This document shows, piece by piece, positions 3,394 to 62,410 of a stretch of 64,000 nucleotides of DNA. Location of the stretch: assembly GCA_048885925.1 (NCBI GenBank), contig JBHLLG010000002.1, positions 38,923 through 102,922 on the forward strand. The letters run 5' to 3'. The notes below the pieces were generated by a model. The model worked only from the letters and a program-made list of their open reading frames with translations. It ran no database searches and was not told the DNA's origin. This stretch comes from Candidatus Hermodarchaeota archaeon. GTDB taxonomy: Archaea > Asgardarchaeota > Lokiarchaeia > Sigyniarchaeales > SOKP01. Each line of letters begins with the position of its first letter. Within the stretch, counting starts at the first letter, position 1. Made by a program: the position numbers and the translations under genes.

Positions 3394-4056
3394 TTGAATT
3401 ACTTAGAAAGAAATTACAATCTTATAAAAGAACGAATGATTCAGCAAATGGAAAATTCATTTATACTAGGAAGAAAGCTTATTGATTCAGAAGTAGATAC
3501 AGGATTATTAAATTTTATTGTTAAACCATTAATTAAAACTTTTTATGACTATTGGTCTAAAAATGAAGCGAAATCTGGAACCTTAAAACAAATTCGAATT
3601 ACATTAGATTGTGGAAAAGAAATATTACTTAATGGAAAAACTGACCAAAGTTTTAATAAAACAATTGATGATAATTTTCTAAAGTATCTAGCCAATGATC
3701 AAACGTATCTTCAGTGTTCAAAATCGCATAAAAATTATGAAAAATTAAAAAATGTTGCTAAAAGTACTTTTAAAAATTATTTAAAAGAAGTAGTAAAGCT
3801 ATTAGAAGTTAAAGATGAAATTGAAAATTATGGAGATTTATGTAGAGTGGCTTTTCCCTCGAAAGATATAGCGAAGCAAAATTTAATGAATCAATTAGAA
3901 TATACAGATAAAGGTATTCAAATCGTTGAAGAAGATCCTTCTATTCTTAAAGTTCCCGTTGGAAGAAAGATTATCGTAAAAGCATTAAGAAAAGGGTTTG
4001 AAGAGACTAAAGCAGAATTCATTAAAGCTCTTGATGAAACATATAATCAAAAATAA
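3394..4056 (+). CDS. Hypothetical helical protein, tandem paralogue 1 (TTG start)
   Basis: 220-aa ORF. Colinear with the next ORF, with about half of positions identical by eye (ERNY..L..RMI.QME.S...G..LIDSE.DTG.LN..VKP..K.FY.YWS...AK.GTLKQIR.TLD ... SILKVP.G.KII.K.LRKGFE.TK). I do not recognise the family. Confidence 0.6.
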   Translation: MNYLERNYNLIKERMIQQMENSFILGRKLIDSEVDTGLLNFIVKPLIKTFYDYWSKNEAKSGTLKQIRITLDCGKEILLNGKTDQSFNKTIDDNFLKYLANDQTYLQCSKSHKNYEKLKNVAKSTFKNYLKEVVKLLEVKDEIENYGDLCRVAFPSKDIAKQNLMNQLEYTDKGIQIVEEDPSILKVPVGRKIIVKALRKGFEETKAEFIKALDETYNQK

Positions 4057-7080: not shown

Positions 7081-8670
7081 ATGGCTGTTTATATTTGTAG
7101 AACATGCAATTATGCATTTCCAGATGAACTTTCACATTTAATAGAAAATAATATTCAAGTATATTGTGAAAGGTGTGGTTCACCTTTTAATTTAGAAGGA
7201 GTTAAATTTAGACCTGCTCCAACTCCATATATAAGAGATAAAAAGCCATATCGTACTTTATCTGAAAGTAAATCATCTAATTTAGAAAAAGTTATTCGTA
7301 GTTTGGATAAAATATCCCTTATTCCAATAATTATATTTACTATTATTAGTTTTATTTGGATTTTTGAGATCTTTTTTGATCCAAGCAATTGGTTTGATAT
7401 TCTTTTTAGATATGGACTTCAAGGATTTATTGGATTTTTCATCATAATATATGATAGTTCTTATATTTCATCTAAAATAAAAGAAAAAAATTATAACGTC
7501 ATATTTCTTGATGCCTTCTGTTGGGGAATTTTAGGTTGTGTCCTGTACGGTACTGGCGTAATTCTTCTTATTAAAGGAATATTTATAATTCTCTATGTAA
7601 TAACTGATAAAAAGAATAATTCCTTAAAGATTTATGACTTTGGATTACTAATTAAGAATTCTCTAAATTATTTTTCAGCTAAAGCTGGCTTTTTAATTAT
7701 ATTATTCGGAATTTATGGGATTTATTTAGGAGATAATTATTTATTAGGATATGATACTTTAACAACTTTAAGAATATTCGATTTCTCTTTTGACATATCT
7801 GATTACTTTTTAACTTTAGCTATTTTGTTTATAATATCATTCATAGCTCTTATAATAGATTTTAAATCAAGAGGCAAACTTAAAGAGAAAAATGAATTTA
7901 AAGTAGGAAACGCAGTTCCAATAATTATTAGAGGAATTTTAGGAGTTATATTTTTCGCTGCCGGAATTTTTATATTATTAAAAGGAATTGTTGTTATTTT
8001 CTTATCTTTTGGAAAACCTTCTGAAATAATAAGCACCACTCCTGTAGAGGAAAAACCAGTATATTATATTCCATCTCCTCCAAGCCCTCCAAAACCTCCA
8101 GCGCCACCTATAGTTCCATATAGAGAAGTAGTGCCGTCCCAGGAAATTACTTTGAAAGATGAACAACAAAAAATTAAAGAAGTTGAACAACCAATTAGAA
8201 AAGAGCCAGAAAAGATTGAAACTCTTATAGCTAAAGAACTTGAAGAAATTCCTATTAAAGTAGATAAAGAAGAAAAAGCAAAAAGGGAAGAAGAATTTGA
8301 ATTAAAATTGCATGATTCTCTTTTACCTGTTAAAGATGAAAAAGATAAGAAATTAGTTAAAGAATATTTCTCAAAAATATTTGCTGTACTTTCAAAGGAA
8401 TTAAGGAATCAAATAAATGATTTAAAAATTTCTAAAAAAGAGAAGAAGGAATTATTAGAAGAGCTAGCCTTCTTAACAAAAGAGGAGCAAGTAAAATATA
8501 TTGCTGCTTTAGTTGATTTATACAAAGAAATACCCAAAAAATTAATTAACAGGATTCGTAAGCTTCCTAATGTTAAACCTAAACATTATGATAAGATTGT
8601 AGAACAACTGAAATATATGGATTATGAGGAACAAATAAAGTTCATTCAATTTTTAGAGGAAAACGCCTAA
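7081..8670 (+). CDS. Zinc-ribbon / multi-TM / proline-rich linker / K,E-rich coiled-coil protein
   Basis: N-terminal CRTCNYAF...CERCGSPF ribbon and about 8 hydrophobic segments, including IWIFEIFFDPSNWF. Pro-rich PSPPSPPKPPAPP linker. The C-terminal charged helical region has a repeated EEQ[VI]K[YF]I motif. Confidence 0.55.
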   Translation: MAVYICRTCNYAFPDELSHLIENNIQVYCERCGSPFNLEGVKFRPAPTPYIRDKKPYRTLSESKSSNLEKVIRSLDKISLIPIIIFTIISFIWIFEIFFDPSNWFDILFRYGLQGFIGFFIIIYDSSYISSKIKEKNYNVIFLDAFCWGILGCVLYGTGVILLIKGIFIILYVITDKKNNSLKIYDFGLLIKNSLNYFSAKAGFLIILFGIYGIYLGDNYLLGYDTLTTLRIFDFSFDISDYFLTLAILFIISFIALIIDFKSRGKLKEKNEFKVGNAVPIIIRGILGVIFFAAGIFILLKGIVVIFLSFGKPSEIISTTPVEEKPVYYIPSPPSPPKPPAPPIVPYREVVPSQEITLKDEQQKIKEVEQPIRKEPEKIETLIAKELEEIPIKVDKEEKAKREEEFELKLHDSLLPVKDEKDKKLVKEYFSKIFAVLSKELRNQINDLKISKKEKKELLEELAFLTKEEQVKYIAALVDLYKEIPKKLINRIRKLPNVKPKHYDKIVEQLKYMDYEEQIKFIQFLEENA

Positions 8671-8672
8671 AA

Positions 8673-9566
8673 ATGTCTTTAGAAAAAAAAAGAGAACCTA
8701 GAGGAACTAAAGAGAAAGAAGAGCTCCAAGAGAGTTCATTTAGGCGACTTGATTTTAAACCATTACAAGAAGTAGTCGAACTAGAAGAGAAAAAATTAGA
8801 TAAAGAGGAAATAGTTGAAGAATTAACTGAAATAGAAAAGGATGTATTAGAAATTGCTAAAGATATCTTAAAATTAAAGCGTTATGGTACTGAGTTTGAA
8901 ATTGAATCGGAAAGTCAAATCCAAAAATATCCAATAATTGAGAAGTTATATGCTAAATGTATTGCTAAACTTTCTTATAAGAAAGGATATAGTAAAGAAG
9001 AAATTTTTCTAGGCATAAGAAGTTTAGAGGCGAAAAATTGGATCGTAACAAATGAGAGACGTACTAAATTAGAGATCCTTAGTAATGAAAAATTGGTAAA
9101 AATACTTGATTTCATTAAAAATAACCCGGGAATCCATGCTAGAGATGATAAAATCGAGGAAGAATTAGAAATAACCAGAACTCCTTTTTTAAAACACGTA
9201 ATGACACTTGAAAGATTTAATCTGATAAGATCTAAAAAAATAGGAAAAACTCTTCATTATTTTTTAAGTGATATGCCAGATGATTATGATAAATTTAAAG
9301 TTATTTTTCTAAATCCTTTAATTCCCAAAATTTTAGAAGAATTATTTAAAGATGAAGAAATTTCAGTTTCTCAGATTGGAGAAAATTTAGATATGTATTC
9401 TGGTACAATTTTATACCATATTAAAAAATTAAAAGAACTTAATCTTATAAGAACTACAAGAAATAAATCTAACAACAAAATATTTTTGGTAAATTTTGAG
9501 CTTCTCAAAAAATATAATACCTTTTTTGATGAACCCGATTTTAGTCAGCTGCTAAAAGGATTTTAA
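8673..9566 (+). CDS. Multi winged-helix (ArsR/HTH_20-like) DNA-binding protein with acidic N-terminus
   Basis: Starts 2 nt after the stop of 7081..8670. Two clear wHTH units: ILDFIKNNPGIHARD...ITRTPFLKHVMTLERFNLIRSKKIGKTLHYF, and ISVSQIGENLDMYSGTILYHIKKLKELNLIRTTR..KIFL. Confidence 0.55.
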   Translation: MSLEKKREPRGTKEKEELQESSFRRLDFKPLQEVVELEEKKLDKEEIVEELTEIEKDVLEIAKDILKLKRYGTEFEIESESQIQKYPIIEKLYAKCIAKLSYKKGYSKEEIFLGIRSLEAKNWIVTNERRTKLEILSNEKLVKILDFIKNNPGIHARDDKIEEELEITRTPFLKHVMTLERFNLIRSKKIGKTLHYFLSDMPDDYDKFKVIFLNPLIPKILEELFKDEEISVSQIGENLDMYSGTILYHIKKLKELNLIRTTRNKSNNKIFLVNFELLKKYNTFFDEPDFSQLLKGF

Positions 9567-12598: not shown

Positions 12599-13489
12599 TT
12601 AGATATCAAGAAAATTTTCATCAAGAAAATCTCTAAACATTTTTTTTTGCTCTTTTTCTTCAATTATTGGTCTTGTGCTAATCGGCTCTCCCGCTTCTTG
12701 AAGGATATCTTTTAAAATATCAATTTTAACATTAATTTTAAACACACCGTCTCTTAGAAATCTTACAATTTGCTTATTATTTACATTTAATCTTAGAAGA
12801 TAACCAAGACCAAAATAAAATTGATGTTCAGGGATAGGATCAATTGGTGATTTACTTGTTACTTCTTTTAAGATATCATATAATAATGCTTTTGATGCTG
12901 TGTGATCTTCAACATTAAAAACCAAATAATATAGTGCATGATACCAGATCTTTTCGCGTTTGTTTTTAACATAATCTAAAAACAATTCTGGAGTAACTAT
13001 TTCCTCTTCTTCTTCCTCTTTTCTTTTTAGGAGTTCTTCTTTAATTCGTTGCTCAAGTTCACTTGAAACTTCCGGAATTGATAGAATTTTACCTTCTTGT
13101 TCACCTGATATTTCAAAATCCTCATGTTTTACTGTTTCGATAGCTTCTTTCATATCTCTTAATTCATCAAAGTCAATTTCGTCAAGATCTGAAAAATCTG
13201 AAATCAGTTCCTCTTTAATTTCTTTTTGTTTTTCGAGTTCGTTAAAAGCTTTTTTTTGTGGCAAAATTTCATTCTTCAATAGTTTATCTTCAGGTAATAC
13301 TACACCTTCCTTGACCTTTTCAATGGCTTCTTGAATTTCTTGAAGTTCCTCGAAATCTAAATCTTCTAAATCAGAAAAATCAGTTTCAAGTGCTTTCATT
13401 TCGCTAAGATAGACTTGCAAATCATCTCCTTCTACTTCTTCCTCAAAATCATCCCTTTTATCATCATTTTCTTCTTCGTTTTCATTCAT
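12599..13489 (-). CDS. Acidic protein with duplicated DFSDL-x-DF-EL motif and globular C-terminal domain
   Basis: 296 aa. DFSDLEDLDFEELQEIQEAIEKVKEG and DFSDLDEIDFDELRDMKEAIETVKHED are internal repeats. Lies 25 nt upstream of engB on the same strand. Confidence 0.5.
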   Translation of the reverse strand: MNENEEENDDKRDDFEEEVEGDDLQVYLSEMKALETDFSDLEDLDFEELQEIQEAIEKVKEGVVLPEDKLLKNEILPQKKAFNELEKQKEIKEELISDFSDLDEIDFDELRDMKEAIETVKHEDFEISGEQEGKILSIPEVSSELEQRIKEELLKRKEEEEEEIVTPELFLDYVKNKREKIWYHALYYLVFNVEDHTASKALLYDILKEVTSKSPIDPIPEHQFYFGLGYLLRLNVNNKQIVRFLRDGVFKINVKIDILKDILQEAGEPISTRPIIEEKEQKKMFRDFLDENFLDI

Positions 13490-13613
13490 AATATCTTCTA
13501 TTTTATTAACAAGCGTTTTATTCGATTCTGTTTATATTATAATTAGTTCTCTACTTCTTTAAATATTGATATTCGTATAATTAAAATTATTCTAAATATT
13601 ATTAGACTTTAAT

Positions 13614-14327
13614 ATGGAAAAAATTAACTTAACTAATATTAAAGGGATAATTTTTGATTTAGACGGTGTTATTTATGATATTACTGAATCAATTAAGAAA
13701 GCTGTTGATGATGGAATTGAAAAATATCAGCTACACAATATTAATCGCGATGATGTTATGGAAGAAATCGCCCATTTAATTGAAGAAATTCAGAATTATC
13801 CTGTACCTAAAATTCTTTTAAATTCTTATGAATTACTAAAAGTAAATTTCTTAGAAGGAATTAGCTTTTTCAAGAAATTACGTATAGCAATTTTCCTATT
13901 TAATCAATTCAATAAATACAAAGAAGCAGAATCGACAATTTTTAAGGACGTTGATAAATTAATCTCAAAATTGGTTAAACATGTAAAATTGGCAATATTA
14001 ACGAACAATAAAAGTCAATATGCAGAAGAAGTCCTAGATAAATTTAATCTTACAGAATATTTTGAAACAATTATCGGTTTTAACGATGTAACAGAAGTAA
14101 AACCAAATCCTGAAGGTATTCTAAAAATCCTTGATAAGTGGAAATTGAAACCTTCAGAGGCAATTTTTATTGGAGATATGACTACGGATATCGAAGCAGG
14201 TAAAGCTGCAAATGTTAAAATGATCTGTGTAGCAAGTGGACTTGCTCGAAAAGAGATCTTACTTAAACATCAACCAGATATTTTGGTAGATAGTACTGAC
14301 CAATTGATTAAGCTTTTCAATTTTTAA
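13614..14327 (+). CDS. HAD-superfamily phosphatase (subfamily IA-like)
   Basis: Motif I IIFDLDGVIYD, motif II LAILTNN, motif III/IV K...GDMTTDIEAG. Confidence 0.75.
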   Translation: MEKINLTNIKGIIFDLDGVIYDITESIKKAVDDGIEKYQLHNINRDDVMEEIAHLIEEIQNYPVPKILLNSYELLKVNFLEGISFFKKLRIAIFLFNQFNKYKEAESTIFKDVDKLISKLVKHVKLAILTNNKSQYAEEVLDKFNLTEYFETIIGFNDVTEVKPNPEGILKILDKWKLKPSEAIFIGDMTTDIEAGKAANVKMICVASGLARKEILLKHQPDILVDSTDQLIKLFNF

Positions 14328-14506
14328 TTTACAAATATAAAAAAAATGATGATTTCTAAAAAGATTTTAATCATTAAGTCTAAAAAATAAGTTTTTATAA
14401 AGACTGAAATTCCTTTTAGAAAATAATATTATTGATTTAGCAAGGCTTAAAAAATCTTATTTATATTATTAGGAAAATAATAAAAACTATATTTTTTATT
14501 TAAACG

Positions 14507-15061
14507 ATGAGTGATAAAGCGTTTGGATTTAAAATAGTTGTTGTAGGAGATGCTGCTGTTGGTAAAACTTCATTAATTAAAAGATATACCACAAATACAT
14601 TTCAAAAAAATTACATATCTACATTAGGTATGCAATTTTCGAGATATGAAGAATTTGTAAATGAAGAAATGGTTGAATTATTTTTATGGGATTTGGCAGG
14701 TCAAGAATCGTTCAACACTCTACGAGATAGATTTTATAAAGGAAGTAGTGGTGCAATTATAGTTTTTTCTCTTGCTCCTGATGAAATTGAAACATATCAT
14801 CATATCGATAAATGGAGAACCCATATAAAAGATGGCTGTGGGAGTATACCTATAGTATTACTTGGTAACAAAGCAGATTTAGTTGATCAAGATGCAATAG
14901 CTACAAGCCCAAATTATGAAACTTCAGATGTTTATGTGAATAAACTTGCCCAAGATCATAATATTATGAAATATTTTAGAACAAGTGCTTTAACAGGTCA
15001 AGGTGTCAAAGAAGCGTTTCAAACATTAGTATTTAAACTATATCAAAGAGCTACCATTTGA
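14507..15061 (+). CDS. Ras-superfamily small GTPase (Rab/Ras-like), paralogue 1
   Basis: G1 GDAAVGKTS, switch-I TLG, G3 WDLAGQE, G4 GNKADL, G5 TSALTG. No C-terminal Cys prenylation motif. Confidence 0.85.
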   Translation: MSDKAFGFKIVVVGDAAVGKTSLIKRYTTNTFQKNYISTLGMQFSRYEEFVNEEMVELFLWDLAGQESFNTLRDRFYKGSSGAIIVFSLAPDEIETYHHIDKWRTHIKDGCGSIPIVLLGNKADLVDQDAIATSPNYETSDVYVNKLAQDHNIMKYFRTSALTGQGVKEAFQTLVFKLYQRATI

Positions 15062-15244
15062 ATTTCTTTTATATCCTGCTTTAAATAACTTTTTTGAAAT
15101 ATAGAGATATTATATTTCTTTTAATTTTAGATATTCGATTGGATTTATTAAAAGTTAATGATATATTGTTTTGTAAAAATTTAAAATAATTAACTTTTAC
15201 TATTTAAGAAAGGGACATTAAACTTAAATTAGTAATTCATTAAT

Positions 15245-15817
15245 ATGTGTGCCGAAGAGAAGGGCTACGGGTTCAAAATTACAGTCATTGGAGATGGAGC
15301 GGTAGGAAAAACATCCCTAATTAAAAAATATACGCAGGGATCCTTTCGAGAAGAATATATCGCAACATTAGGCACGCAATTTTCCAAATATGAAGAAAAA
15401 ATTGATGGAGAAAAAGTTGAGTTGTTTTTATGGGATATTGCAGGACAAGATCAATTTCAAGCATTACGACAAAGGTTCTATATAGGGAGCAGTGGAGCTA
15501 TCATCGTTTTTTCTCATGATCCAGCACAACTAAGATCTTATGAACATGTTCCTAAATGGCTTGATGATCTTAAAAAGCATTGTGGAAATATACCAATAAT
15601 TTTATTTGGAAATAAAATTGATTTGGTAGATGATGGAAAATTAGAATCAAATCCAAATATACCCACTTCAGATATAAATGTTGAAACTTTTGCAAAAGAA
15701 AATAGATTTATTGGATATTATAAAACAAGTGCATTAACTGGTCAAGGAGTGACTGATGCCTTTGAAGTACTTGTTAAAAAACTATATATGATCGCTAAAA
15801 TTTCAAGTTTTACTTAA
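15245..15817 (+). CDS. Ras-superfamily small GTPase (Rab/Ras-like), paralogue 2
   Basis: G1 GDGAVGKTS, G3 WDIAGQD, G4 GNKIDL, G5 TSALTG. Colinear with 14507..15061, with well over half of positions identical by eye. Confidence 0.85.
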   Translation: MCAEEKGYGFKITVIGDGAVGKTSLIKKYTQGSFREEYIATLGTQFSKYEEKIDGEKVELFLWDIAGQDQFQALRQRFYIGSSGAIIVFSHDPAQLRSYEHVPKWLDDLKKHCGNIPIILFGNKIDLVDDGKLESNPNIPTSDINVETFAKENRFIGYYKTSALTGQGVTDAFEVLVKKLYMIAKISSFT

Positions 15818-15864
15818 ACTACATCCAAAATTTCAATTATATTAAAAAAAGAAATTTAAAAAAA

Positions 15865-18147
15865 TTACGTACGTTTATAGATAAATCTTTCCCAACTCTT
15901 CTTACTTGGCGCTTCTAATGGCATATTTTTACGCTTGCGAATATCCATAATGATACTTTCTTCTAATTGAGGAGGAACTTTCTCAAATCCTAAAAATTCA
16001 TATCCAAAAAATGCCCGTCCCGCTGTTGAGCCCCTAATATCGTCAGCAAGTCCTATAGTTTCTGCAGCAGGAATTTGACCTTGAATTCTTACATATTCTC
16101 CCTCAGGAATAACGTTAGTAATTCGACCTCTTCTTCTAGTTATAATACTAGAAACTGATCCTTCTGTACCCTGTGGTGATTTCACATCTATCTTCTGTAT
16201 TGGCTCAAAAAGGTGTGGATTTGCATCCAACATAGCCAAGGATACAGCAGAGAAGAACATACCAGCAATCTGCCCATATTGCGTATGTCTGGGGTCTTCA
16301 TGGATTGTCATATCAGTAAAAACGACTTTGATTCCAGCAGCAGGTTCTTTTGCTAGGATACAATTGCCAAGCCAATCCCTAAATGCAGCACTTAAATATG
16401 ATCTTACACGATCAAATCTCTGTAATCCTGAGGTACCATTTACAAGAACACTTCCATGATAGAGATCAACAATTCTTCTTGCTTCTTTAGCGTCCCATCC
16501 AGCTTCTTCTCTAAGAATTTGAGCTCGATCTTTCTCATTTTGCAGATCATTCACTTTACCGGTTTCTATCAAACGTTCAGTTTTTTCATCTAAGGGTTCT
16601 ATATATAATAAAACACGATTATGCGTGTTTGCTGATTTAGTATAATAATCAGGACTTTTTTGAGTAATTTTTTCCCTATATACGATTATTGGTTCTCCAA
16701 TATTAATTTGCACTTGATTATTTATACGTTTTACTAAAATTTCTATCTGTAATGGGTCGATTCCAGATAAAATAAATTCTCCTGATTCTTGATCTCTTCT
16801 ATATTCTGCTGTTGGATCTGCTTTTAACCATTTACTTACAACCTCATCCAGTTTATCTATATCATGTGGATCTTTTGGTTTAATGCTTCTCGAGACAACA
16901 GCTTCACATGCATAATGGATTTTTTCAAAGGCGGGTATTCTTTTCCTTTCTTCCTTATCTTTAGGGACATCATTTGCGTTAATAAAGGTTTCTCCTGATG
17001 GAGAAATGAATCCATACAATGCAAATAAATTGCCAGCAGGAACTTTAGGAATATCTAAAATATCTGTAATTTCCATCACTCCAAGTCTTTTCACTCGAGT
17101 TTGTGAATCACTATTAACAAGATAAAGTGTATCACTTTGATCAAAGGTACCCGAAAAAACACGACCGATAAGTGTGGCCTGATAATTTCTTTTAGGATCA
17201 AGGAAAATCTTAGTAATCATACCATAAAGAGGTCCTTTAGGGTCGCTTTTAACAAGAGCTTGACCAAGTTCCGATTTTAAGTCACCTCCCCAAATGTGGG
17301 GAATTCTATACTTTGAAGCAGTAACTGGATCTGGTAAATGATCTACAATCATTCTTAGCATAGGTTCATCTAGAGGTAGATTGTCCCTTAACCACTGAAT
17401 ATCACCTTCATTATATTTAGCAAAAACATCTTGGGGTTTCAAACCTTTTTCCAATAAAATCTCGTAAGTAAAACCCCAACCATGTTTTGCTGAACCAACT
17501 GCCACAGAATTTTTCGCAAAATCAATACTCCAATCTGAGCCTTCTGGTCTAACCTTCTTGATCAGATCATTTACTTCTCTAGTGATTTTATCAATCTTAG
17601 CAAAGGTTTGTTGTGGGGTTAATTTAAGCTCACTAATAAGGCGGTCAACTTTATTAATGAAAAGAACGGGTTTGCAGTATTCCTCACCGACAGACAATCT
17701 AATATTAGTTTCTGTTTGTGTCATAACGCCCTCAAGAGCATCCACCAATATAATAGCACCATCACTGCCTCGAAGAGCTCTTGAGACCTCTCCGGTAAAA
17801 CTGATATGACCGGGGGTATCATTGAGCTGAATAATATAAGATTCATCATCTTCTGGCTTTCTAGGGTCATTAAATGCAAGAAGAACTACACTTGTGAATA
17901 TAGTAATGCCCCGTTCCTGCTCCTCGTCTTTCAGTAGATCAAGTAAATCTTAATCTAAATCTGAATCTGTCATTTGGAGCTGTCCGGCATCCTCGGGTCG
18001 CATGAGACCAGCTCTGCGTAGTAAGTAATCAGTAGCTGTAGTTTTGCCATGATCAATATGAGCTGTGATTGAAAACAACCTTTTCTTTTTATATGAACCT
18101 TCTGTAACCAATTTTGCTATAGTCTCAGGGTTCTTTACTTTAACCAT
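15865..18147 (-). pseudogene. Translation elongation factor aEF-2, interrupted by a single in-frame TAA at 17950..17952 (pseudogene, base-call error or readthrough)
   Basis: Track ORFs 17950..18147 (AHIDHGKTT G1) and 15865..17748 are in the same frame. The 201 nt between them is open and encodes DLLDLLKDEEQERGITI...LNDTPGHISF...GAIILVDALEGV. G4 is NKVDR, and domains II-V are intact to the natural stop at 15865. Confidence 0.85.
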
Positions 18148-18368
18148 TATAAGTTCACATCGTATAAATTATAGTTAGTTATTATGTTATAATTGAAGAA
18201 AAGAATACTGGAAATCATAAAAGTTTTATGATTCAAATATAAAGCCTCAGAAGTTATTATTAAACTCATTAATAAAAGAAAAGAAAGGAATTCATATTCA
18301 TTTAAAATATCGTACTCTATTATAATTTTAATTAGTTAAAAAAAATAGCTAAGTTGAGGATTTAGATT

Positions 18369-19697
18369 TTGAGTGATTATTTTACTATTAGACTTTCAAT
18401 CACAGTAATGTTTATTTTTGCTGCTCTTGTTTTTACAGTGGTATGTTCTAAAAGACGTGATTTGATTTCTTGGCTTTTTGCTTATATAGCAGGTTCAATA
18501 TCAGAAATTTTTAGACTAATATCTCAAGAAGATTATGATGTTCCTTATCTAATAGGTCTTGTTTTTTCTACTCTCACCTTATTGTTGATAATTTTTGCAG
18601 TATCTCGGGAATATTATCAGACGTTTTACCAATCTCTAAAAACGCAAGCACCTTCTACTGTTTTATTATTAATTATGCAACAATTTGTGTCAATCAGCTT
18701 ACAAGTAATAATCGGGATCCTACTCTTTATAGCATTGTTTTTAATCTTAAGAATTTATTTGAAGAAGAAAACACCAACACATGCATTTTTATTTTTTATT
18801 TTAATTTGTGGCATTCTGAATTTAGTAGCTATTGCTTTAAGAGATGTGGGTATTAGTGGGGCAGAAGAATTTTACTTATTTTCTTCGATAGTAATGGGTA
18901 CAATTATGCTTTTGACTGGAATAGTTGCGCTAATTGAAGAAAGGTTAGTAAAATCTGAAAAGAAGCATCGGCTAGCATATAATAGAGCTGAATTTTATAA
19001 AGATTTGTTTGTTCATGATATTAATAATATTCTTCAAAATTTGCAATTTTCATTAGAAATTATTTCCCAAAACATTAAAATTTATGAGAATAAAGAAAAT
19101 CTTGATGAGTTAATTAATATTGCAAAAGGTCAAGTAATTAGAGGCGCAGAATTGGGTTTAAATGTGAAAAAACTTTCTGATTTAGAGATAGGAGCAATTA
19201 AAAATGAAGCAATAGAGCTTTTTAATATATTAGAATGCGTTATAAGTGAGACTAAGAAAAAGTTTCCTGAAGAAGAAATAGAGATTGAGATTGAAAGTAT
19301 AACAAATAAGATTTTTGTTTTTGCTAATATACTTTTAAAAGATATTTTTAGAATCATATTGAATAATGCTATAAAATATAATGAAAGTCCTGTTAAAGAA
19401 ATCCTCATAAGAATTTCTAAGGAGACGCGAGATTTCGGCTCTAATATAAAATTGGAATTTATTGACAATGGTGTTGGAATACCGGATGCTATGAAAAATG
19501 ATATACTTCAGCCCGTCTATAAGAATATAAAAGATTTTAAGAGAATTGGATTAGGTTTACTTCTTGTGAATGAAGTAATTAATAGTTTTTCTGGTAAAAT
19601 TTGGGTAGAAGATAAAGTTATAGGTGATTATACAAAAGGTAGTAATATTGTTCTCTTAATCCCTGAAGCTTATGGAATATTAGATGTAGAAAGGTAA
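18369..19697 (+). CDS. Membrane sensor histidine kinase
   Basis: About 6 N-terminal TM helices. H-box FVHDINNILQ, N-box LNNAIKYN, G1 DNGVGIP, G2 GLGLLLV. No adjacent response regulator. TTG start. Confidence 0.8.
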   Translation: MSDYFTIRLSITVMFIFAALVFTVVCSKRRDLISWLFAYIAGSISEIFRLISQEDYDVPYLIGLVFSTLTLLLIIFAVSREYYQTFYQSLKTQAPSTVLLLIMQQFVSISLQVIIGILLFIALFLILRIYLKKKTPTHAFLFFILICGILNLVAIALRDVGISGAEEFYLFSSIVMGTIMLLTGIVALIEERLVKSEKKHRLAYNRAEFYKDLFVHDINNILQNLQFSLEIISQNIKIYENKENLDELINIAKGQVIRGAELGLNVKKLSDLEIGAIKNEAIELFNILECVISETKKKFPEEEIEIEIESITNKIFVFANILLKDIFRIILNNAIKYNESPVKEILIRISKETRDFGSNIKLEFIDNGVGIPDAMKNDILQPVYKNIKDFKRIGLGLLLVNEVINSFSGKIWVEDKVIGDYTKGSNIVLLIPEAYGILDVER

Positions 19698-38819: not shown

Positions 38820-39257
38820 TTAATCTGTTTCGACTTCATATTCTAGGATTTCACGAATTCTATCACGTAAGTCAAATCTTATAGCAGACATTCCATATGT
38901 GGTAATCCCTAATTTTTTTTGAACTGTTTTTGCTTTTAAAGCACCAGGAAGATCTTGTTTATTAGCTATAGCAATAATCTTGGTATTCATATATCGCGAA
39001 AACTTCTTATAAATCTCCTTAGTCTTTTCTATGTTATCTTCAGTCGAATCGCATACCAAAACTGTTAATCCTGCTCCTCTTAAAAAATCCTGCCACATGA
39101 AATGATAACGTTCTTGTCCCCCAAAATCCCAAATATTAACCTTTTTTCCATTAAGTTTAGAATTCTCAATCTCTAATCCTACTGTTGGTGTTGTTTCATT
39201 TGGTATTTCTCGTCCTTGAAGTAAAGATACTAATGATGATTTCCCAACACTGCTCAA
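38820..39257 (-). CDS. Arf/Arl-like small GTPase; annotated TTG start truncates the P-loop
   Basis: SSVGKSS, TVG, WDFGGQE (Arf-type WDxGGQ), ANKQDL. The frame stays open for 14 more codons upstream (FEVLSTKTKICFLG) to TGA at 39300..39302, without an ATG, GTG or TTG. Confidence 0.8.
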   Translation of the reverse strand: MSSVGKSSLVSLLQGREIPNETTPTVGLEIENSKLNGKKVNIWDFGGQERYHFMWQDFLRGAGLTVLVCDSTEDNIEKTKEIYKKFSRYMNTKIIAIANKQDLPGALKAKTVQKKLGITTYGMSAIRFDLRDRIREILEYEVETD

Positions 39258-39548
39258 CCCTAAAAAACAAATTTTGGTTTTAGTCGAAAGAACCTCAAAT
39301 CAACCTTTTCTAAATAAACCTTTTTATGTAGAAAAGGCAAATAAAGCTTCAAAAAAGAAAATAATATTCGTATATCATGGGAATATTCCAATAGAATTTA
39401 ATAATAGTTGAATTTTAAATTTAAAATTTAAAAAAAAAATTCTAATTTGAACATAAAAATCCTAATTAGATTAACTTTATAAACTATTTTAAAAAAATAA
39501 TCAAATTAAAATAAGAATATAAGAAAAAATTTCTAAAATAGAGTTTTT

Positions 39549-43137: not shown

Positions 43138-43368
43138 TTATGTTTCCAAATTAGAGAAATATTCCCCTTTTAAATCATAAAATAATTCTTCCCTATTTTC
43201 TCTTATCAATTGAAAGATTTCATCCATTTCTGTCTTAAAATTGTAAATATTTCCTAAAGAATCAGAGATCTCTTCTATAGCTTTATCACTTTTAAATTTT
43301 TGAAATACTAATTCAAGATCATAAATATTGACGGAAGTCTCTTTAAAAAAGTCTAAAAGATGGTGCAA
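43138..43368 (-). CDS. Hypothetical protein; real gene probably extends to 43596/43607 (start region damaged)
   Basis: The track ORF starts at TTG 43368, but the frame is open upstream to 43596 (LKIPNWLIHIKWAKKAGINEDVANIVNIALDYGFNW...). An ATG at 43607 (MKSD) sits one frame away. Confidence 0.4.
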   Translation of the reverse strand: MHHLLDFFKETSVNIYDLELVFQKFKSDKAIEEISDSLGNIYNFKTEMDEIFQLIRENREELFYDLKGEYFSNLET

Positions 43369-43710
43369 ATAAAGCGCTTTAATATAACTTTTCTTAAGTT
43401 TATTTTTTTCATTAAAATATTTTAATTGTTGAACAAAGATGCTATCATTATTTTTTTCAAAATCTATGATATTATCTCTATAAAATGTCCAATTAAAACC
43501 ATAATCTAAAGCAATATTTACAATATTTGCTACATCTTCATTAATACCCGCTTTTTTCGCCCATTTGATATGAATTAACCAATTGGGAATTTTTAATCAC
43601 TTTTCATTTATGTATTTTATTTTAAGATAAAAAAAAATAAAAAATCATAGAATATTAAATTAAATTAAGAAATAAAAAAAAAAATAATTAATACCCGAGT
43701 TATCAATACC

Positions 43711-58953: not shown

Positions 58954-59577
58954 TTATCTTGCAGAGACTGCTATTCTTTCAATTTCATCTTTACGTTTTA
59001 CTGCTCTCGAATCTTGACTGTTCTTCGAGGCTAATATTAATTCCTGAGCCAGATTGTCTTCGAATTCTTTCTCATTAGAATGAGACCTAGCGCCAATTGC
59101 TTGAACAAGATACTTTATACCTAAGTCAACTCTGCGTTGTGGAGCGATATCTACAGCTGAAGCATAACTAATGCCTCCCATCGCGATTTTTGTTGTCTCT
59201 TCACGAGGTGCTGAATTAATTATCGCATCGATTAGAACTTGAATGGGATTTTGATTAGTAATGAGCTCGATTAATGTAAATGCATTTTCTAAACTCTTAG
59301 TTAACTTACCTTTTTTCCCAGAATTAGAAGAACTTTTATGACCTTTAATTTTACTGCCAATAAATCCAGGAGATAATAATCTATTTGTAAATCTTTCTAT
59401 TATTGATACTTTTGAAGATTTCCAAAATCTTTTATGTTCATGTCTTCCAGAAGAATAAGGAACTATAATAGGCTTTAAATTAATATAATTCTCAAGGGTT
59501 ATATCATCTATATTAACATCTGAAAAAGACCACTTATTAAAGAGTTTGATGTCTTTCTTGGTTTTACTCATATTCAT
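58954..59577 (-). CDS. rps7: Ribosomal protein S7 (uS7)
   Basis: 207 aa with the typical archaeal uS7 C-terminal half (AIINSAPREETT...GGISYASAVDIAPQRRVD...). Follows rps12. Confidence 0.95.
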   Translation of the reverse strand: MNMSKTKKDIKLFNKWSFSDVNIDDITLENYINLKPIIVPYSSGRHEHKRFWKSSKVSIIERFTNRLLSPGFIGSKIKGHKSSSNSGKKGKLTKSLENAFTLIELITNQNPIQVLIDAIINSAPREETTKIAMGGISYASAVDIAPQRRVDLGIKYLVQAIGARSHSNEKEFEDNLAQELILASKNSQDSRAVKRKDEIERIAVSAR

Positions 59578-59589
59578 TTCCTTCTATTA

Positions 59590-60018
59590 TTATCGTAATG
59601 GTTTCTCTTTTTTTCCACTAAGTAATGCATCAAGACTTACTCCATTAACTTTTACTACTTTATAACGAACTCCGGGAAGGTCACCAACAGATCGTCCTTT
59701 TGCTCCTCCAATCCCTTCAACGATAACTCTATCATGCTCTTCTATAAAATTAAGAGCTCCATCTCCAGGCAAGAATGCCGTGACTCCTTTTCCATTTTTC
59801 TTTAATTGAACACGAACACACTTCCGAATAGCAGAGTTAGGTTGCTTACTCTCTCTACCAACTTTTTGAAGTACAATTCCAAGAGCTTGAGGACTTCCTT
59901 CAAGAGGATCAACCTTCTTTTTCAATTGAAGTTTCCTTCTTTTATATTTGGTTTTTGACCATCGAAATTTCTTTCGGGTGGTTTGAAGTTTTCGAGCCGC
60001 ATATAGTCCTTTTGGCAC
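59590..60018 (-). CDS. rps12: Ribosomal protein S12 (uS12)
   Basis: [28 protein letters not shown]...[13 protein letters not shown]. Confidence 0.95.
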
Positions 60019-60115
60019 TTTTATACACCAAAATTAAATTATTTATAATGTGAAAAAATACATCTTTAAACTTAAAATTTATGGAAAGAATTTAATTCTA
60101 TTATATTGTAGTAAT

Positions 60116-61372
60116 TTATTCTACTCGTAGATCAAGACTCTTTATAGCATTATAACAAATATCTATAACTCCATTTAGGTTTTCAGCGCTACACAATTCA
60201 GGAGTATCCTTTTTCGAATGGATATATTTTGAATCTTTATTTGATAAAAAACAACTTACCTGAAAATCTTTCTTTTCAGCTTTTTTTGTGAAGGCACGAA
60301 AAGATAAATGATCACTTCCAGATCCGAATGCCATCTTTGGACTATCAGAATTGATTTTTTGTTGCATATCTGAGGCTTTTAAAACATCATTTAAATTTTT
60401 GTTTAATTTCTTTTTCTTAAGTAATCCAGTCTCATCAATTAAACCTATATATGTACCCACCATATCAACGTTAATATTGTATGATTTGTTTAAGTCATAA
60501 TCGTAATCTATTTCTTCTAAATGTTTAGAACAAAAGTGCTTTGAGCCCCATATCCCCATTTCTTCTGCCCCACACCATAAAAAGATTACATCTGTTCTTT
60601 CAAGAGGATTTTTCTTTACTAATTTAGCTAATTCTAATAAAATTGCTGTCCCTGAAGCATTATCTATCGACCCAATAGATTCATTTGTTTTTCTATTAAA
60701 AAAAGTAATAAAGAGTTCACTCATAATGATAATTCCAACAATAAAGGATATTGTTCTTATTAATAAGTATACAAACTCGATGGAAATTGCTGTAAATAAA
60801 ATAACAATTGACCAAATGGAGAGAATAATGTTTATTAGAAAATAAGAAAGAAGAAGGAAAAGAATTGAAAGAAGTAAAGGTTTCATCATTTTTGTTGGAA
60901 AAAGACTTGAAACAGAATCATAATGAGCTGAAAAAATGATAACTGGCCTCTTAGGATATAAATCTTTTGCTTGTATGGTGGTGTAAAGATTTTTTGATTC
61001 TCTTTTCTTACCAATATATAAAATCTTGGATTGATCAAACAGAAACTTTCCTCCGGATAACAGAATTACAATGAATAACCCATCAAGAGGAAGGATTATC
61101 CATGTAAAGAGAGGATTTAATAATAAAATTTGACAAATGAGAATGAAGGTAAAAAACCATAAAAATAGTAATTTCCTTAATTTTGTTGTTGTTGTAGTCC
61201 ATTTAAAAGATTCTATGATGGGTTGAATATTCTGTTTATCTAATTCTTTGATGATATAATTAATTGCTTTAGTTTCGCCTTCAGTTGCAGCATACCTTTT
61301 AAATGCTAACGTTTTCACGTGGTTAATAGCAGCATTTTCATCATACAATTTCAAATCAGAAATATATCTCAC
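60116..61372 (-). CDS. M28-family metallopeptidase with embedded TM segments
   Basis: IIFSAHYDSV, DNASGTAILLELAKL, WCGAEEMGIWGS, DMVG and SDHLSF are M28 zinc-ligand motifs. Several hydrophobic helices lie between the N-terminal and catalytic parts. Confidence 0.7.
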   Translation of the reverse strand: MRYISDLKLYDENAAINHVKTLAFKRYAATEGETKAINYIIKELDKQNIQPIIESFKWTTTTTKLRKLLFLWFFTFILICQILLLNPLFTWIILPLDGLFIVILLSGGKFLFDQSKILYIGKKRESKNLYTTIQAKDLYPKRPVIIFSAHYDSVSSLFPTKMMKPLLLSILFLLLSYFLINIILSIWSIVILFTAISIEFVYLLIRTISFIVGIIIMSELFITFFNRKTNESIGSIDNASGTAILLELAKLVKKNPLERTDVIFLWCGAEEMGIWGSKHFCSKHLEEIDYDYDLNKSYNINVDMVGTYIGLIDETGLLKKKKLNKNLNDVLKASDMQQKINSDSPKMAFGSGSDHLSFRAFTKKAEKKDFQVSCFLSNKDSKYIHSKKDTPELCSAENLNGVIDICYNAIKSLDLRVE

Positions 61373-61430
61373 TTTAATAGTAAATTTTTTTTATAAAATT
61401 GATAATTGTTAATAAGGATATCAATGAAAA

Positions 61431-61907
61431 TTAGATATTTTTAGTGTTGATTATAACGTTGTCTACTTCAAAATATCTTAAAACCAATTCTTTAATCTTT
61501 CTTATCATTGAACCATCTTTACCGATAGCTTTTCCTCGATCTTGAGGACGCACAGTAATAATAACGGTCTTTCTTTGATTTTTACTTTCTTTAATCTCTA
61601 TATTTTGAACTTTTATTAAATTTTTAGTTGTTTGTAAGATATTTTGGATAAATTTATTTAAATCTTCAGAAAAAGCTATTACATCGATTTTTTTCTGAAG
61701 TTTTGACTTTAAATCTTTAACATGTTCACCAGCTTTTCCAATCGCTTTTCCAACATCTTCTTCTTTTACTAGAAATATAATGATTTCTGACCCATTCTCA
61801 GGAGATTTAAAGATTAAACAGTCTTTTATGATAGCACCAGAAATGTTGTTAAATAGAGAAATAAGTTCCATTGCTTCCCGATCAATTTTAATATTCTTTT
61901 TTAACAT
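61431..61907 (-). CDS. nusA: Archaeal NusA-like protein (two KH domains)
   Basis: GKAIGKAGEHVKDL and GKAIGKDGSMIRKI are GxxG KH motifs. Sits at the canonical position between L30e and S12. Confidence 0.85.
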   Translation of the reverse strand: MLKKNIKIDREAMELISLFNNISGAIIKDCLIFKSPENGSEIIIFLVKEEDVGKAIGKAGEHVKDLKSKLQKKIDVIAFSEDLNKFIQNILQTTKNLIKVQNIEIKESKNQRKTVIITVRPQDRGKAIGKDGSMIRKIKELVLRYFEVDNVIINTKNI

Positions 61908-61934
61908 TTAAAAAACTAGCTAATTGTAATTGGG

Positions 61935-62309
61935 TTATTTAGTTTTTAATTTTATTAAATCAGAATCTCCAAAATCAAAAACTCCTATAACAGAAATCAT
62001 ATAAGGTTTAGCACACGCTAATCCTAAATCCCAGCTTGATCCTTTGTATTTATAGATAAAGACTTTATCTTTCAAAAGAGAATTATAGTGATTTAATTGA
62101 TTTATCAATTCTAATGGACAATTTTTGCTTACAATGAGCATTTTAAAGGGATTTTTTCCTCTTAAATTTTTTAATACTTGGTTTTTGCCATAAATTATTT
62201 TACCCGTCTTATAAGCAACTTTGATATTTGTGTCAACATCAAATTCTTTGACTTTTTTTCTGCTCAGATCAACTTTTTCAATGGTATCTTTACTTGTTCT
62301 TTTCCCCAT
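61935..62309 (-). CDS. rpl30e: Ribosomal protein L30e (eL30)
   Basis: YKTGKIIYGKNQVLKNLRGKN.KMLIVSKNCP...YKGSSWDLGLACAKPYMISVIGV.DFGDSD. Canonical position after rpoA2. Confidence 0.85.
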   Translation of the reverse strand: MGKRTSKDTIEKVDLSRKKVKEFDVDTNIKVAYKTGKIIYGKNQVLKNLRGKNPFKMLIVSKNCPLELINQLNHYNSLLKDKVFIYKYKGSSWDLGLACAKPYMISVIGVFDFGDSDLIKLKTK

Positions 62310-62410
62310 AATAAAATCATACGTAATCTATATAATAAGTAATAAGAATGATACTTTTTTAATATTATTTAGCTAATGTGTGTTTTTTCTTTATAATTAA
62401 AAGTTTTCGT

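What the first reader, a model, noticed from the sequence alone, without database searches (positions are those of the whole stretch)
17944..17961. Essential-looking aEF-2 gene carries exactly one in-frame TAA inside a GATTTA hexamer repeat
Track ORFs 17950..18147 and 15865..17748 share one frame (18147-17748 = 399, divisible by 3). The 201 nt between them is open and encodes the missing switch/G3 region (DLLDLLKDEEQERGITI...LNDTPGHISF...DALEGV). A 761-codon aEF-2 reading frame is therefore broken only by TAA at 17950..17952. On the coding strand the stop is the middle unit of GATTTA-GATTAA-GATTTA, one T-to-A change away from Leu TTA. The acidic segment DLD*DLLDLL looks like a ~10-codon insertion relative to the AG.....D...DEQERGITI spacing I remember for EF-2. 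Everything else looks functional (G1 AHIDHGKTT, G3 DTPGH, G4 NKVDR, full domains II-V). TAA is a normal terminator for neighbouring genes (4054..4056, 8668..8670), so genome-wide reassignment is unlikely. The remaining explanations are a base-call or assembly error, a recent nonsense mutation in a redundant EF-2 paralogue, or site-specific readthrough. No other EF-2 gene is in this window, not even at the usual position after rps7. Two other genes here (38820..39257 and 43138..43368) also have lesions, which raises the prior for sequence error.
Basis: partly seen in the sequence, partly recalled or inferred. Interest (0 to 1): 0.7.

Follow-up and report, generated by a model that had tools for sequence, protein, structure and literature searches.

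The report
Mini-intron inside an archaeal EF-2 gene
The stop codon that seems to break this Asgard archaeon's essential elongation factor 2 gene lies in a 30-base insert with the fold that the archaeal tRNA-splicing enzyme cuts, so it is most likely an intron removed from the mRNA, a kind so far reported for only one other archaeal protein-coding gene.

Summary
The 761-codon minus-strand frame 18147..15865 has one internal TAA, at 17950..17952.

The TAA lies in an exact 30-nt insert (17929..17958) between codons D63 and D64. Almost all 750-aa orthologues lack the insert. The same insert, with TAA unchanged, occurs at the same site in 22 other genomic or metagenomic assemblies. Related 30/31-nt inserts occupy four further sites in codons 30-63. 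In all, 30 of 144 genes carry at least one. One insert is 31 nt and so breaks the frame.

Every insert fits the archaeal bulge-helix-bulge (BHB) register: a 4-bp exon-intron helix, two 3-nt bulges cut after their second base, and an inner hairpin. The predicted cuts coincide with the insert borders. The helices show compensatory changes, including exon-against-intron changes. Exon synonymous sites are frozen where the insert is present. The insert evolves more slowly than synonymous sites. Interrupted genes have dN/dS of 0.04-0.09.

The gene is the canonical Lokiarchaeial aEF-2, with an HxDxxHTQ loop. Best reading: a BHB intron removed by EndA and RtcB. Splicing itself was not observed. No report of it was found in the searchable papers.

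The parts
17959..18147 (-). aEF-2 exon 1 (codons 1-63, with the P-loop AHIDHGKT); ends ...GAT TCA GAT
   Evidence: Identical in extent to residues 1-63 of the 750-aa orthologues.
17929..17958 (-). 30-nt insert, proposed BHB-type intron: TTAGATTAAGATTTACTTGATCTACTGAAA
   Evidence: Absent from 64 of 77 orthologues at this site and present at the same site in 22 other assemblies. Removing it restores MTDSD|DEEQERG and a 750-codon ORF. The covariance model scores it 63 bits, E 4e-13, and the next hit in the window scores 13.5 bits.
17950..17952 (-). In-frame TAA, third codon of the insert. It forms part of the inner hairpin: UAAG pairs with CUUG here. AAG/CUU is invariant; the U pairs in 14 of 21 sequences.
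   Evidence: Invariant in all carriers. Pairs at columns 43-53, 44-52 and 45-51 are kept in 21/21 sequences.
17961..17964 (-). H1: exon half (TCAG) of the 4-bp central helix
   Evidence: Pairs with CTGA at 17931..17934. 100% paired in 21 sequences. The TCA and GAT codons are fixed in carriers but variable in non-carriers.
17958..17960 (-). Bulge 1 (A U | U). The 5' splice site falls after its 2nd base, between 17959 and 17958.
   Evidence: Folding gives a 3-nt bulge. The cut position equals the insert border deduced from orthologues. The rule is quoted in PMC2738675.
17935..17957 (-). Inner hairpin h': stem 17949..17957 paired with 17935..17943, loop 17944..17948
   Evidence: MFE fold. Compensatory changes GC<->AU and UA<->AU occur in the stem.
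17931..17934 (-). H2: intron half (CTGA) of the central helix
   Evidence: At other insertion sites this tetramer changes to stay complementary to the local exon (GCGC/GCGT, GCAC/GTGT).
17928..17930 (-). Bulge 2 (A A | G). The 3' splice site falls after its 2nd base, between 17929 and 17928.
   Evidence: Same register at every site.
17976..17980 (-). Distal exon-exon helix, 5' half (GCUCC); partner GGAGC at 17919..17923
   Evidence: Predicted by single-sequence and alignment folds. 94% of cells are paired in 21 sequences, but the helix is absent in L092 and weakened in L106, so it is probably helpful rather than required. The synonymous sites involved are fixed in the 13 carriers compared.
17919..17923 (-). 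Distal exon-exon helix, 3' half (GGAGC)
15865..17928 (-). aEF-2 exon 2 (codons 64-750 plus terminal TAA at 15865..15867)
   Evidence: Carries the loop HEDPRHTQ and SANTHN.

Best explanation
Window 17929..17958 (minus strand) is a 30-nt archaeal bulge-helix-bulge (BHB) intron. It interrupts the canonical elongation factor 2 gene of a Lokiarchaeia-type (Promethearchaeota) Asgard archaeon between codons 63 and 64.

Proposed mechanism. In the pre-mRNA the last exon bases UCAG pair with the intron bases CUGA, forming the 4-bp central helix. On either side lies a 3-nt bulge, AU|U and AA|G. The intron interior forms a 9-bp hairpin. The tRNA-splicing endonuclease EndA cuts after the second base of each bulge. 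In Asgard archaea this enzyme is reported to be the broad-specificity (alpha-beta)2 type. A 3'-phosphate RNA ligase (RtcB) then joins the exons, giving GAU|GAC and the normal 750-aa protein. Unspliced mRNA would stop at the intron's TAA after 65 codons.

Shown here: the anatomy, the recurrence at this and four other sites, covariation, selection on the intron and on the exon pairing partners, and purifying selection on the host gene.

Inferred: that EndA and RtcB carry out the excision, and that splicing occurs at all. No cDNA was seen.
For: (1) Exact, recurrent insert. 23 carriers share this site (the window, 12 species genomes and 10 metagenome contigs). Four further sites lie after codon 30, after codon 32, in codons 34/35 and after codon 61. 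Every insert over 9 nt lies in the first 63 codons and is 30 nt long, with one of 31 nt. 30 of 144 genes are carriers and 3 carry two inserts.

(2) Removing the inserts restores intact 750-codon ORFs in the 16 carrier genes checked, including the gene with a 31-nt plus a 30-nt insert.

(3) One fixed BHB register fits all sites, and the cuts after the 2nd bulge base coincide with the insert borders. H pairs are 4/4 at three sites and 3/4 at two. Shuffled inserts do as well in only 1e-5 to 4e-3 of trials. MFE folds give helix, 3-nt bulge and hairpin, with z-scores of -3.3 to -4.2 for the window's own site.

(4) Covariation. At site B, 95.5% of cells are paired against 25-48% when the partner columns are slid, and two stem pairs show double changes. 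At site A there is an exon-intron double change, GCGC/GCGT to GCAC/GTGT. Across sites, 93.7% of cells are paired against 79% in shuffles, and 3 of the 4 H pairs change on both sides.

(5) Exon synonymous sites that pair are frozen in all 13 carriers compared but free in 64 non-carriers. The full combination was found in 0 of the 64 non-carriers.

(6) Intron identity is 83% against 56% at synonymous-like third positions, in 78 of 78 pairs. The window and L021 have dS 0.66 but identical introns.

(7) Interrupted genes have dN/dS 0.037-0.088 and uninterrupted genes 0.038-0.056.

(8) Literature. The cut rule and relaxed BHB motifs in cbf5 pre-mRNA are described in PMC2738675. The Asgard (alpha-beta)2 EndA with the L1 loop is described in PMC5829648.
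Against: There is no transcript, cDNA or peptide evidence. Seven spliced protein sequences are absent from the 15-billion-protein collection, so no spliced copy was seen.

The outer helix h directly next to bulge 2 is missing, which makes this the relaxed HBh' form. The distal GCUCC/GGAGC helix is lost in one carrier (L092) and weakened in another (L106).

At two sites (after codons 32 and 61) the central helix has only 3 pairs plus an A.G or A.A mismatch. For L119 an alternative fold is energetically better.

EndA and RtcB genes were not found in this window, and their presence in this genome was not checked.

Covariation within site B rests on only two variable stem pairs.
Confidence: 0.85

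Rival explanations
1. Programmed translational bypassing: the ribosome hops over the 30-nt insert, as in phage T4 gene 60 or the mitochondrial 'byp' elements, so the mRNA is never spliced.
For: The insert is short, contains a stop, sits in an essential gene and carries a conserved hairpin. The flanking codons at this site are both Asp (GAT ... GAC).
Against: At site A the flanking codons are CAT and ATT, which are not a matched take-off/landing pair. The stop is the third codon of the insert, not the one after the take-off codon. Hopping from GAT to GAC would lose one Asp, yet all orthologues have two acidic residues there. The feature shared by all five sites is the BHB register with an exon-intron helix that co-varies. 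Bypassing does not predict that.
Confidence: 0.04
2. Decaying or disabled gene: a small insertion with a nonsense codon has inactivated this copy, and another EF-2 does the work.
For: Lokiarchaeota carry a second EF-2 family gene, aEF-2p (PMC6143161). This window has two other frameshifted genes.
Against: dN/dS is 0.037-0.088 between interrupted genes, and there are no other stops or frameshifts in 2250 nt in the 16 carriers checked. The insert itself is more conserved than synonymous sites. According to Narrowe et al., aEF-2p lacks the domain IV residues needed for translocation, and this gene carries the canonical-copy signature HxDxxHTQ. For seven carriers no uninterrupted copy encoding the same protein exists in the collection.
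Confidence: 0.04
3. Sequencing or assembly artefact at 17950..17952, or in the whole insert.
For: Two homopolymer frameshifts elsewhere in the window suggest an imperfect consensus.
Against: The same insert occurs in an independent assembly that is 99.5% identical and in 21 more assemblies from different studies and species. Their sequences differ, and the differences are compensatory.
Confidence: 0.01
4. Stop-codon readthrough: the insert is translated, giving an EF-2 with 10 extra residues just upstream of the G2 (RGITI) motif.
For: The insert length is a multiple of three at this site.
Against: Site-A inserts have three in-frame stops (L**AFLTIA*). One insert is 31 nt. The substitution pattern preserves base pairs rather than amino acids (LD*DLLDLLK, LN*DILSLLK, LE*GLLFLLK). 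TAA is the main terminator here.
Confidence: 0.02
5. The insert is excised from RNA by some machinery other than EndA/RtcB, for example an unknown nuclease that recognises the conserved UAAG...CUU hairpin.
For: The hairpin top (AAG/CUU) and several loop bases are conserved at sites A and B beyond what a bare BHB motif needs. The motif is the relaxed form.
Against: The bulge and helix geometry and the cut positions match the EndA rule at every site. No other archaeal RNA-splicing pathway of this kind came up in the papers read.
Confidence: 0.04

Closest known systems
BHB intron in the cbf5 (pseudouridine synthase) pre-mRNA of Crenarchaeota (Watanabe et al. 2002; Yoshinari et al. 2006; Yokobori et al. 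2009, PMC2738675)
   Same: A very short intron (16-44 nt there, 30-31 nt here) inside a protein-coding sequence. The BHB motif is mostly of the relaxed kind. Cuts fall between the 2nd and 3rd bulge bases and match the exon borders. Distribution among related species is patchy. The host lineage has a hetero-oligomeric EndA.
   Different: The gene differs (essential translocase aEF-2) and so does the lineage (Asgard, Lokiarchaeia type). There are at least five insertion sites in one gene and up to two introns per gene. Introns at two of the sites are clearly homologous (65% mean and 81% maximum identity, against 32% for the shuffled control). Splicing has been shown experimentally for cbf5 but not here.
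BHB introns of archaeal tRNA and rRNA genes
   Same: The same structural motif and, presumably, the same enzymes (EndA, RtcB). Non-canonical positions and relaxed HBh' motifs are typical of lineages with (alpha-beta)2 EndA (PMC5829648).
   Different: The substrate is an mRNA coding region. The exon half of the helix must also encode conserved amino acids, and this shows up as frozen synonymous sites.
BHB intron in the 5' UTR of Haloferax volcanii HVO_1309 mRNA (Schwarz et al. 2020, PMC7714728)
   Same: An mRNA processed by the tRNA-splicing endonuclease.
   Different: That intron lies in the untranslated leader and does not interrupt a reading frame.
Unconventional splicing of HAC1/XBP1 mRNA (IRE1 endonuclease; RtcB ligase in animals) - comparison from my own general knowledge
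   Same: A small non-spliceosomal intron (26 nt in XBP1) inside a coding region. It is removed by an endonuclease that leaves ends for a tRNA-type ligase, and removal decides whether functional protein is made.
   Different: IRE1 recognises twin stem-loops rather than a BHB motif. That process is stress-regulated and changes the frame. There is no evidence of regulation here.
Translational bypass elements (phage T4 gene 60; mitochondrial byps) - comparison from my own general knowledge
   Same: A short, stop-containing, structured insert in an otherwise intact essential gene.
   Different: These are not removed from the RNA and need matched take-off and landing codons, which are absent at site A here. 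They have no BHB geometry.

Membership tests
Archaeal BHB (EndA/RtcB-spliced) intron | Two 3-nt bulges on opposite strands separated by a 4-bp helix | tested here: met
   In the window: UCAG/CUGA with bulges AUU and AAG. H is 100% paired in 21 site-B and 6 site-A sequences. At the sites after codons 32 and 61 only 3 of 4 pairs form.
Archaeal BHB (EndA/RtcB-spliced) intron | Splice sites between the 2nd and 3rd base of each bulge, matching the exon-intron borders | tested here: met
   The borders deduced independently from insert-less orthologues (GAT|...AAA|GAC) coincide with the predicted cuts, and sliding is not possible at this site. The same register holds at all five sites. The rule is stated in PMC2738675.
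Archaeal BHB (EndA/RtcB-spliced) intron | Flanking helices h (outer) and h' (inner): the strict hBHBh' form | tested here: inconclusive
   h' is present and co-varies. The adjacent outer helix h is essentially absent. A distal exon-exon helix GCUCC/GGAGC is usually present but not always. This makes it the relaxed HBh' form, which the strict alpha4 and alpha'2 enzymes do not accept but (alpha-beta)2 enzymes do (PMC5829648).
Archaeal BHB (EndA/RtcB-spliced) intron | Host encodes a splicing endonuclease able to cut relaxed motifs, and an RtcB-type ligase | not tested
   Neither gene is in this window, and the rest of the genome was not available. The literature says Asgard archaea have an (alpha-beta)2 EndA with the L1 loop.
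Archaeal BHB (EndA/RtcB-spliced) intron | Spliced RNA (cDNA junction, excised or circular intron) observed | not testable with these tools
   No transcriptome could be searched. Exact look-up of seven spliced proteins found nothing.
Canonical archaeal EF-2 (translocase), as opposed to the paralogue aEF-2p | Full five-domain EF-2 with G1-G4 motifs and a retained diphthamide-site His in the domain IV loop. In Lokiarchaeota the loop reads HxDxxH-T-(S/Q). | tested here: met
   The loop is HEDPRHTQ and the second loop is SANTHN. This matches the description of Lokiarchaeota aEF-2 in PMC6143161. The protein is colinear with PDB 5h7j aEF-2, E 2.6e-158. The NCBIfam aEF-2 model TIGR00490 is the best hit but scores below its cut-off (613.6 against 738.45 bits), as expected for this divergent clade.
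Translational bypass element | Matched take-off and landing codons flanking the gap, with a stop right after the take-off codon | tested here: not met
   At site A the flanking codons are CAT and ATT. At site B the stop is the 3rd codon of the insert.

The most novel reading that the evidence does not exclude
The 30-nt elements are a mobile family of BHB mini-introns that spread between sites of the essential aEF-2 gene without any homing endonuclease. Supporting observations: introns at sites A and B are homologous; only the 4-nt guide tetramer is retuned to the local exon; one copy sits 6 nt upstream at a look-alike ACAGAT site. A possible route is reversal of the EndA/RtcB reaction followed by reverse transcription. 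Their retention would make EF-2 synthesis depend on the tRNA-splicing machinery, giving an archaeal counterpart of RtcB-dependent XBP1/HAC1-type mRNA splicing in the closest prokaryotic relatives of eukaryotes.
Probability: 0.2. Interest if true: 0.9.

Novelty: new member of a known kind. Interest (0 to 1): 0.78.

Why it matters
Reviews and research papers up to 2025 cite cbf5 of Crenarchaeota as the only archaeal protein-coding sequence interrupted by a BHB intron (PMC7714728; reference list of PMC12397907). If this reading is right, four things follow.

1. The tRNA-splicing machinery would be needed to produce an essential translation factor in a fifth of Lokiarchaeia-type Asgard genomes. 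This makes mRNA splicing in the archaeal relatives of eukaryotes directly testable by RT-PCR or in vitro cleavage.

2. It offers a natural system for studying how BHB introns are gained, moved and lost: five sites, homologous copies and a patchy distribution across the gene tree.

3. It explains a systematic annotation error. About a fifth of the closest database entries are N-terminally truncated calls (702, 673, 689, 626 aa and so on). EF-2 is, to my knowledge, widely used as a phylogenetic and completeness marker.

4. It shows exon codon choice being constrained by the need to pair with an intron.

Tried and rejected
(a) Generic BHB-plus-ORF-joining scans. In the window the scan recovered the EF-2 intron. 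The other hits were adjacent genes fused across intergenic spacers, for example 8617..8654 between ORFs 7081..8670 and 8673..9566. In the 161 loci the looser version gave hundreds of boundary artefacts and was uninformative.

(b) Search for the same intron family in other genes. A regular expression with a BHB check and a covariance model found only aEF-2 copies in about 1.15 Mb. That DNA is all EF-2 neighbourhood, so this says little about the rest of the genomes.

(c) Search for a spliced or intron-less twin. Exact look-up of seven spliced proteins found none.

(d) Rfam: no family matches 17700..18250.

(e) ARAGORN: no tRNA genes in the window.

They are not. Both are repaired by one base in an A6 or a T6 run.

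(g) Paralogue aEF-2p as the gene's identity. Rejected on the domain IV loop.

(h) Literature searches for BHB introns in Asgard or EF-2 mRNAs found nothing relevant.

(i) Selection for the in-frame stop as such. I did not claim this, because my own rough estimate is that a random AT-rich 30-mer has about a 0.6 chance of containing an in-frame stop. The invariance of the TAA is explained by its role in the hairpin.
Full report
**1. Observation**

On the minus strand, 18147..15865 is one frame of 761 codons with a single internal stop, TAA at 17950..17952. The context is GAT TCA GAT TTA GAT TAA GAT TTA CTT GAT CTA CTG AAA GAC GAG.

Pfam finds the GTP_EFTU, EFG_III, EFG_IV and EFG_C domains. The best NCBIfam model is aEF-2 (TIGR00490), at 613.6 bits against a cut-off of 738.45.

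TAA ends 32 of the 37 long open frames in the window, so it is the ordinary terminator. The window is about 28% G+C.

**2. What the orthologues show**

A search of the protein collection returned thousands of relatives. The closest are 75-95% identical. They come from MAGs labelled Promethearchaeota, Lokiarchaeota and similar names, and are almost all exactly 750 aa.

They read ...QLQMTDSD|DEEQERGITI.... The window therefore carries 10 extra codons, LD*DLLDLLK, which is 30 nt at 17929..17958.

About a fifth of the 120 best hits are N-terminally truncated gene calls at a few recurring lengths: 702 aa starting MRPEDAGQ, 673 aa starting (M/V)LLAFNDPR, and also 689, 720 and 626 aa. This suggested that many genomes carry something that stops gene callers in the first 80 codons.

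**3. DNA of related loci**

One scan of species-representative genomes gave loci L001-L080. One scan of metagenome contigs gave L082-L161.

An alignment of all 161 genes shows that every insertion longer than 9 nt lies within the first 63 codons and is 30 nt long, with one of 31 nt. The sites are:

| Site | Position | Carriers | Length |
|---|---|---|---|
| A | after codon 30 | 6 sequences | 30 nt |
| A2 | after codon 32 | L119, L120 | 30 nt |
| A2 | after codon 32 | L066 | 31 nt |
| A3 | codons 34/35 | L068 | 30 nt |
| B' | after codon 61 | L119 | 30 nt |
| B | after codon 63 | the window plus 22 others | 30 nt |

- 30 of 144 genes that cover the region carry at least one insert, and three carry two.
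- Removing the inserts restored an uninterrupted 750-codon frame in each of the 16 carrier genes from the window and the genome scan that were checked, including L066, whose 31-nt insert breaks the frame.
- An independent assembly, GCA_975964565.1, is 99.5% identical to window 12866..18630. It has the same insert and was likewise called as 65-aa plus 626-aa ORFs.

Sequencing error is therefore excluded.

**4. Anatomy**

All inserts fit one register. Reading 5' to 3':

- 4 exon bases (H1);
- a 3-nt bulge made of the last two exon bases and the first intron base;
- a hairpin (h');
- 4 intron bases (H2) complementary to H1;
- a second 3-nt bulge made of the last two intron bases and the first base of exon 2.

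In the window this reads UCAG-AU|U-[UAGAUUAAG AUUUA CUUGAUCUA]-CUGA-AA|G.

This is the archaeal bulge-helix-bulge motif. [quoted passage not shown] Those positions are exactly the insert borders deduced independently from insert-less orthologues. At this site the borders cannot be slid.

Folding the window sequence gives this structure:

- z = -4.2 for 95 nt;
- z = -3.3 for the 50-nt core.

The same shape appears for sites A and A3.

With the register fixed, shuffled inserts match the observed pairing in only:

- 7e-5 of trials (site B);
- 1e-5 (site A);
- 3e-3 (A3);
- 2e-3 and 4e-3 (A2);
- 2e-4 (B').

The outer helix right next to bulge 2 is missing. The motif is therefore the relaxed HBh' form. 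A distal exon-exon helix GCUCC/GGAGC usually closes the structure.

**5. Evolutionary evidence that the structure matters**

- *Site B, 21 sequences.* 95.5% of cells are paired, against 25-48% when partners are slid. H is 100% paired. Two stem pairs switch GC<->AU and UA<->AU.
- *Site A, 6 sequences.* H is 100% paired. L160 has changed both the exon (GCGC to GCAC) and the intron (GCGT to GTGT).
- *Sites A, B and B' aligned together, 22 sequences, no gaps.* 93.7% of cells are paired against 79% in shuffles. Three of the four H pairs differ on both sides between sites. The intron tetramer is thus tuned to whichever exon it sits in.
- *Exon synonymous positions.* Positions that take part in pairing are invariant in 13 of 13 carriers. 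They are free in 64 non-carriers: for example, the Leu57 third base is C in 13/13 carriers against 15/64 non-carriers. The full carrier combination occurs in 0 of the 64 non-carriers.
- *Intron conservation.* Intron identity averages 83% against 56% at synonymous-like third positions, and is higher in 78 of 78 pairs.
- *Window versus L021.* They differ by dS 0.66 yet share an identical intron.
- *Host gene constraint.* Interrupted genes have dN/dS 0.037-0.088. Uninterrupted ones have 0.038-0.056. These are not pseudogenes.

**6. Identity of the host gene**

Narrowe et al. [quoted passage not shown] In Lokiarchaeota G703 is replaced by Ser or Gln, and the diphthamide-site His is kept. The paralogue aEF-2p has lost the loop.

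The window protein reads HEDPRHTQ. It is therefore the canonical translocase, which also explains the sub-threshold NCBIfam score.

The spliced protein aligns gap-free with Pyrococcus horikoshii aEF-2 (5h7j) across the junction.

No other EF-2 gene was found among the window's ORFs of 130 aa or more, and none follows rps12-rps7 at 58954..60018.

**7. Distribution and relationships of the introns**

On a neighbour-joining tree of the spliced genes, the site-B intron is scattered across the whole tree, including deep branches. This implies either an old intron with many precise losses or lateral spread.

Site-A and site-B introns are homologous. Mean identity is 65% and the maximum is 81% over the 26 positions outside H2, against 32 +/- 9% for shuffled controls.

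In L119 the B-type intron sits 6 nt upstream, after ACAGAT instead of TCAGAT.

A covariance model of the family scores the window copy at 63 bits. It finds no copy outside aEF-2 in the window or in 1.09 Mb of fetched loci. That DNA is all EF-2 neighbourhood, so the rest of these genomes remains untested.

**8. Mechanism proposed**

The proposal is transcription, folding of the BHB motif, cleavage by EndA, and ligation by RtcB.

Kaneta et al. report that Asgard archaea carry the (alpha-beta)2 EndA with the L1 loop, the type associated with relaxed motifs (PMC5829648). Yokobori et al. link cbf5 pre-mRNA introns to the same type of enzyme.

These steps are inferred. No transcript data were available. 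Seven spliced proteins are absent from the protein collection. EndA and RtcB are not in this window.

**9. Rivals**

- *Translational bypassing* fails at site A, which has no matched codons, and does not predict exon-intron covariation.
- *Readthrough* fails on the 31-nt insert and on inserts with three stops.
- *Pseudogenisation* fails on dN/dS and on intron conservation.
- *Sequencing error* fails on recurrence in independent assemblies.
- *A non-EndA excision pathway* cannot be excluded but has no support.

**10. Comparison with what is known**

Schwarz et al. 2020 state that only the cbf5 mRNA intron of Crenarchaeota had been reported besides their own 5'-UTR case (PMC7714728). A 2025 paper on archaeal splicing endonucleases still cites only the cbf5 work for mRNA (PMC12397907).

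Six full-text searches found no report of BHB introns in Asgard mRNAs or in EF-2. The library does not cover all journals, so prior description cannot be ruled out.

I class this as a new member of a known kind: the second protein-coding host gene, the first in Asgard archaea, with the unusual features of several sites and homologous copies.

**11. Verdict**

Confidence that this is an RNA-spliced BHB intron is about 0.85. Interest is 0.78.

Noticed in passing
window 43138..43600 (minus strand); A-run within 43547..43564: The ORF 43138..43368 is the tail of a longer frame that lacks a start codon. Deleting one A from the run in ATGGGCGAAAAAAGCGGG yields a 141-aa ORF starting MGEKAGINEDV.... 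This is a single-base homopolymer frameshift (sequencing error or a real frameshift), not an intron.
   Followed up: partly
window 38820..39300 (minus strand); T-run within 39258..39280: The small GTPase ORF starts inside its P-loop (MSSVGKSS). Adding one T to GTTTTTTAGGG gives (TTG start)RFFRLKPKFVFLGLSSVGKSSL..., a complete N-terminus. This is again a homopolymer frameshift, not a BHB insert.
   Followed up: partly
L066:4097-4127 (31 nt); L119 and L120 (30 nt) after codon 32: The inserts after codon 32 have a central helix of only 3 pairs plus an A.G mismatch. In L119 an alternative fold (UUGAU/AUCAA) is more stable, but its predicted cuts would add an Arg to the P-loop. How the cut sites are set there is unclear.
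   Followed up: partly
L119 gene positions ~180-215 (contig Ga0114925_10039920): A site-B-type intron sits 6 nt upstream of the usual place, after ACAGAT rather than TCAGAT, in a gene that also carries a codon-32 intron. It looks like intron sliding or re-insertion at a look-alike site.
   Followed up: partly
L027, L058, L076: first codon of the aEF-2 gene: Three orthologues have ATA where the others have the ATG start (ATA GTC AAA GTA = IVKV). This could be a non-canonical start codon, an upstream start, or an error.
   Followed up: no
L110:902-3180: This metagenome copy carries the site-B intron (with CTGG instead of CTGA, a G.U pair) and also a 1-nt deletion about 30 nt into exon 2 that breaks the frame. 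It is either a contig error or a truly decaying copy.
   Followed up: no
window 58954..63664 (minus strand): The gene order is rpoA''-like (Rpb1 domain 5), NusA-like KH protein, M28 peptidase, rps12, rps7. The cluster ends there with no EF-2 downstream, so aEF-2 has moved about 41 kb away, next to two Ras/Arf-like small GTPase genes (14507..15061 and 15245..15817).
   Followed up: partly
window 8617..8654 (plus strand): A 38-nt stretch with BHB-like pairing would fuse ORFs 7081..8670 and 8673..9566 if removed. Each ORF has its own stop and start, so I judge this a chance match.
   Followed up: partly
sites A and B, intron positions 8-10 and 16-18: The hairpin top AAG...CUU (and UCCUU/UACUU) is nearly invariant at both sites, which is more than a BHB motif needs. 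It may be a stability element or a recognition site for another factor.
   Followed up: no
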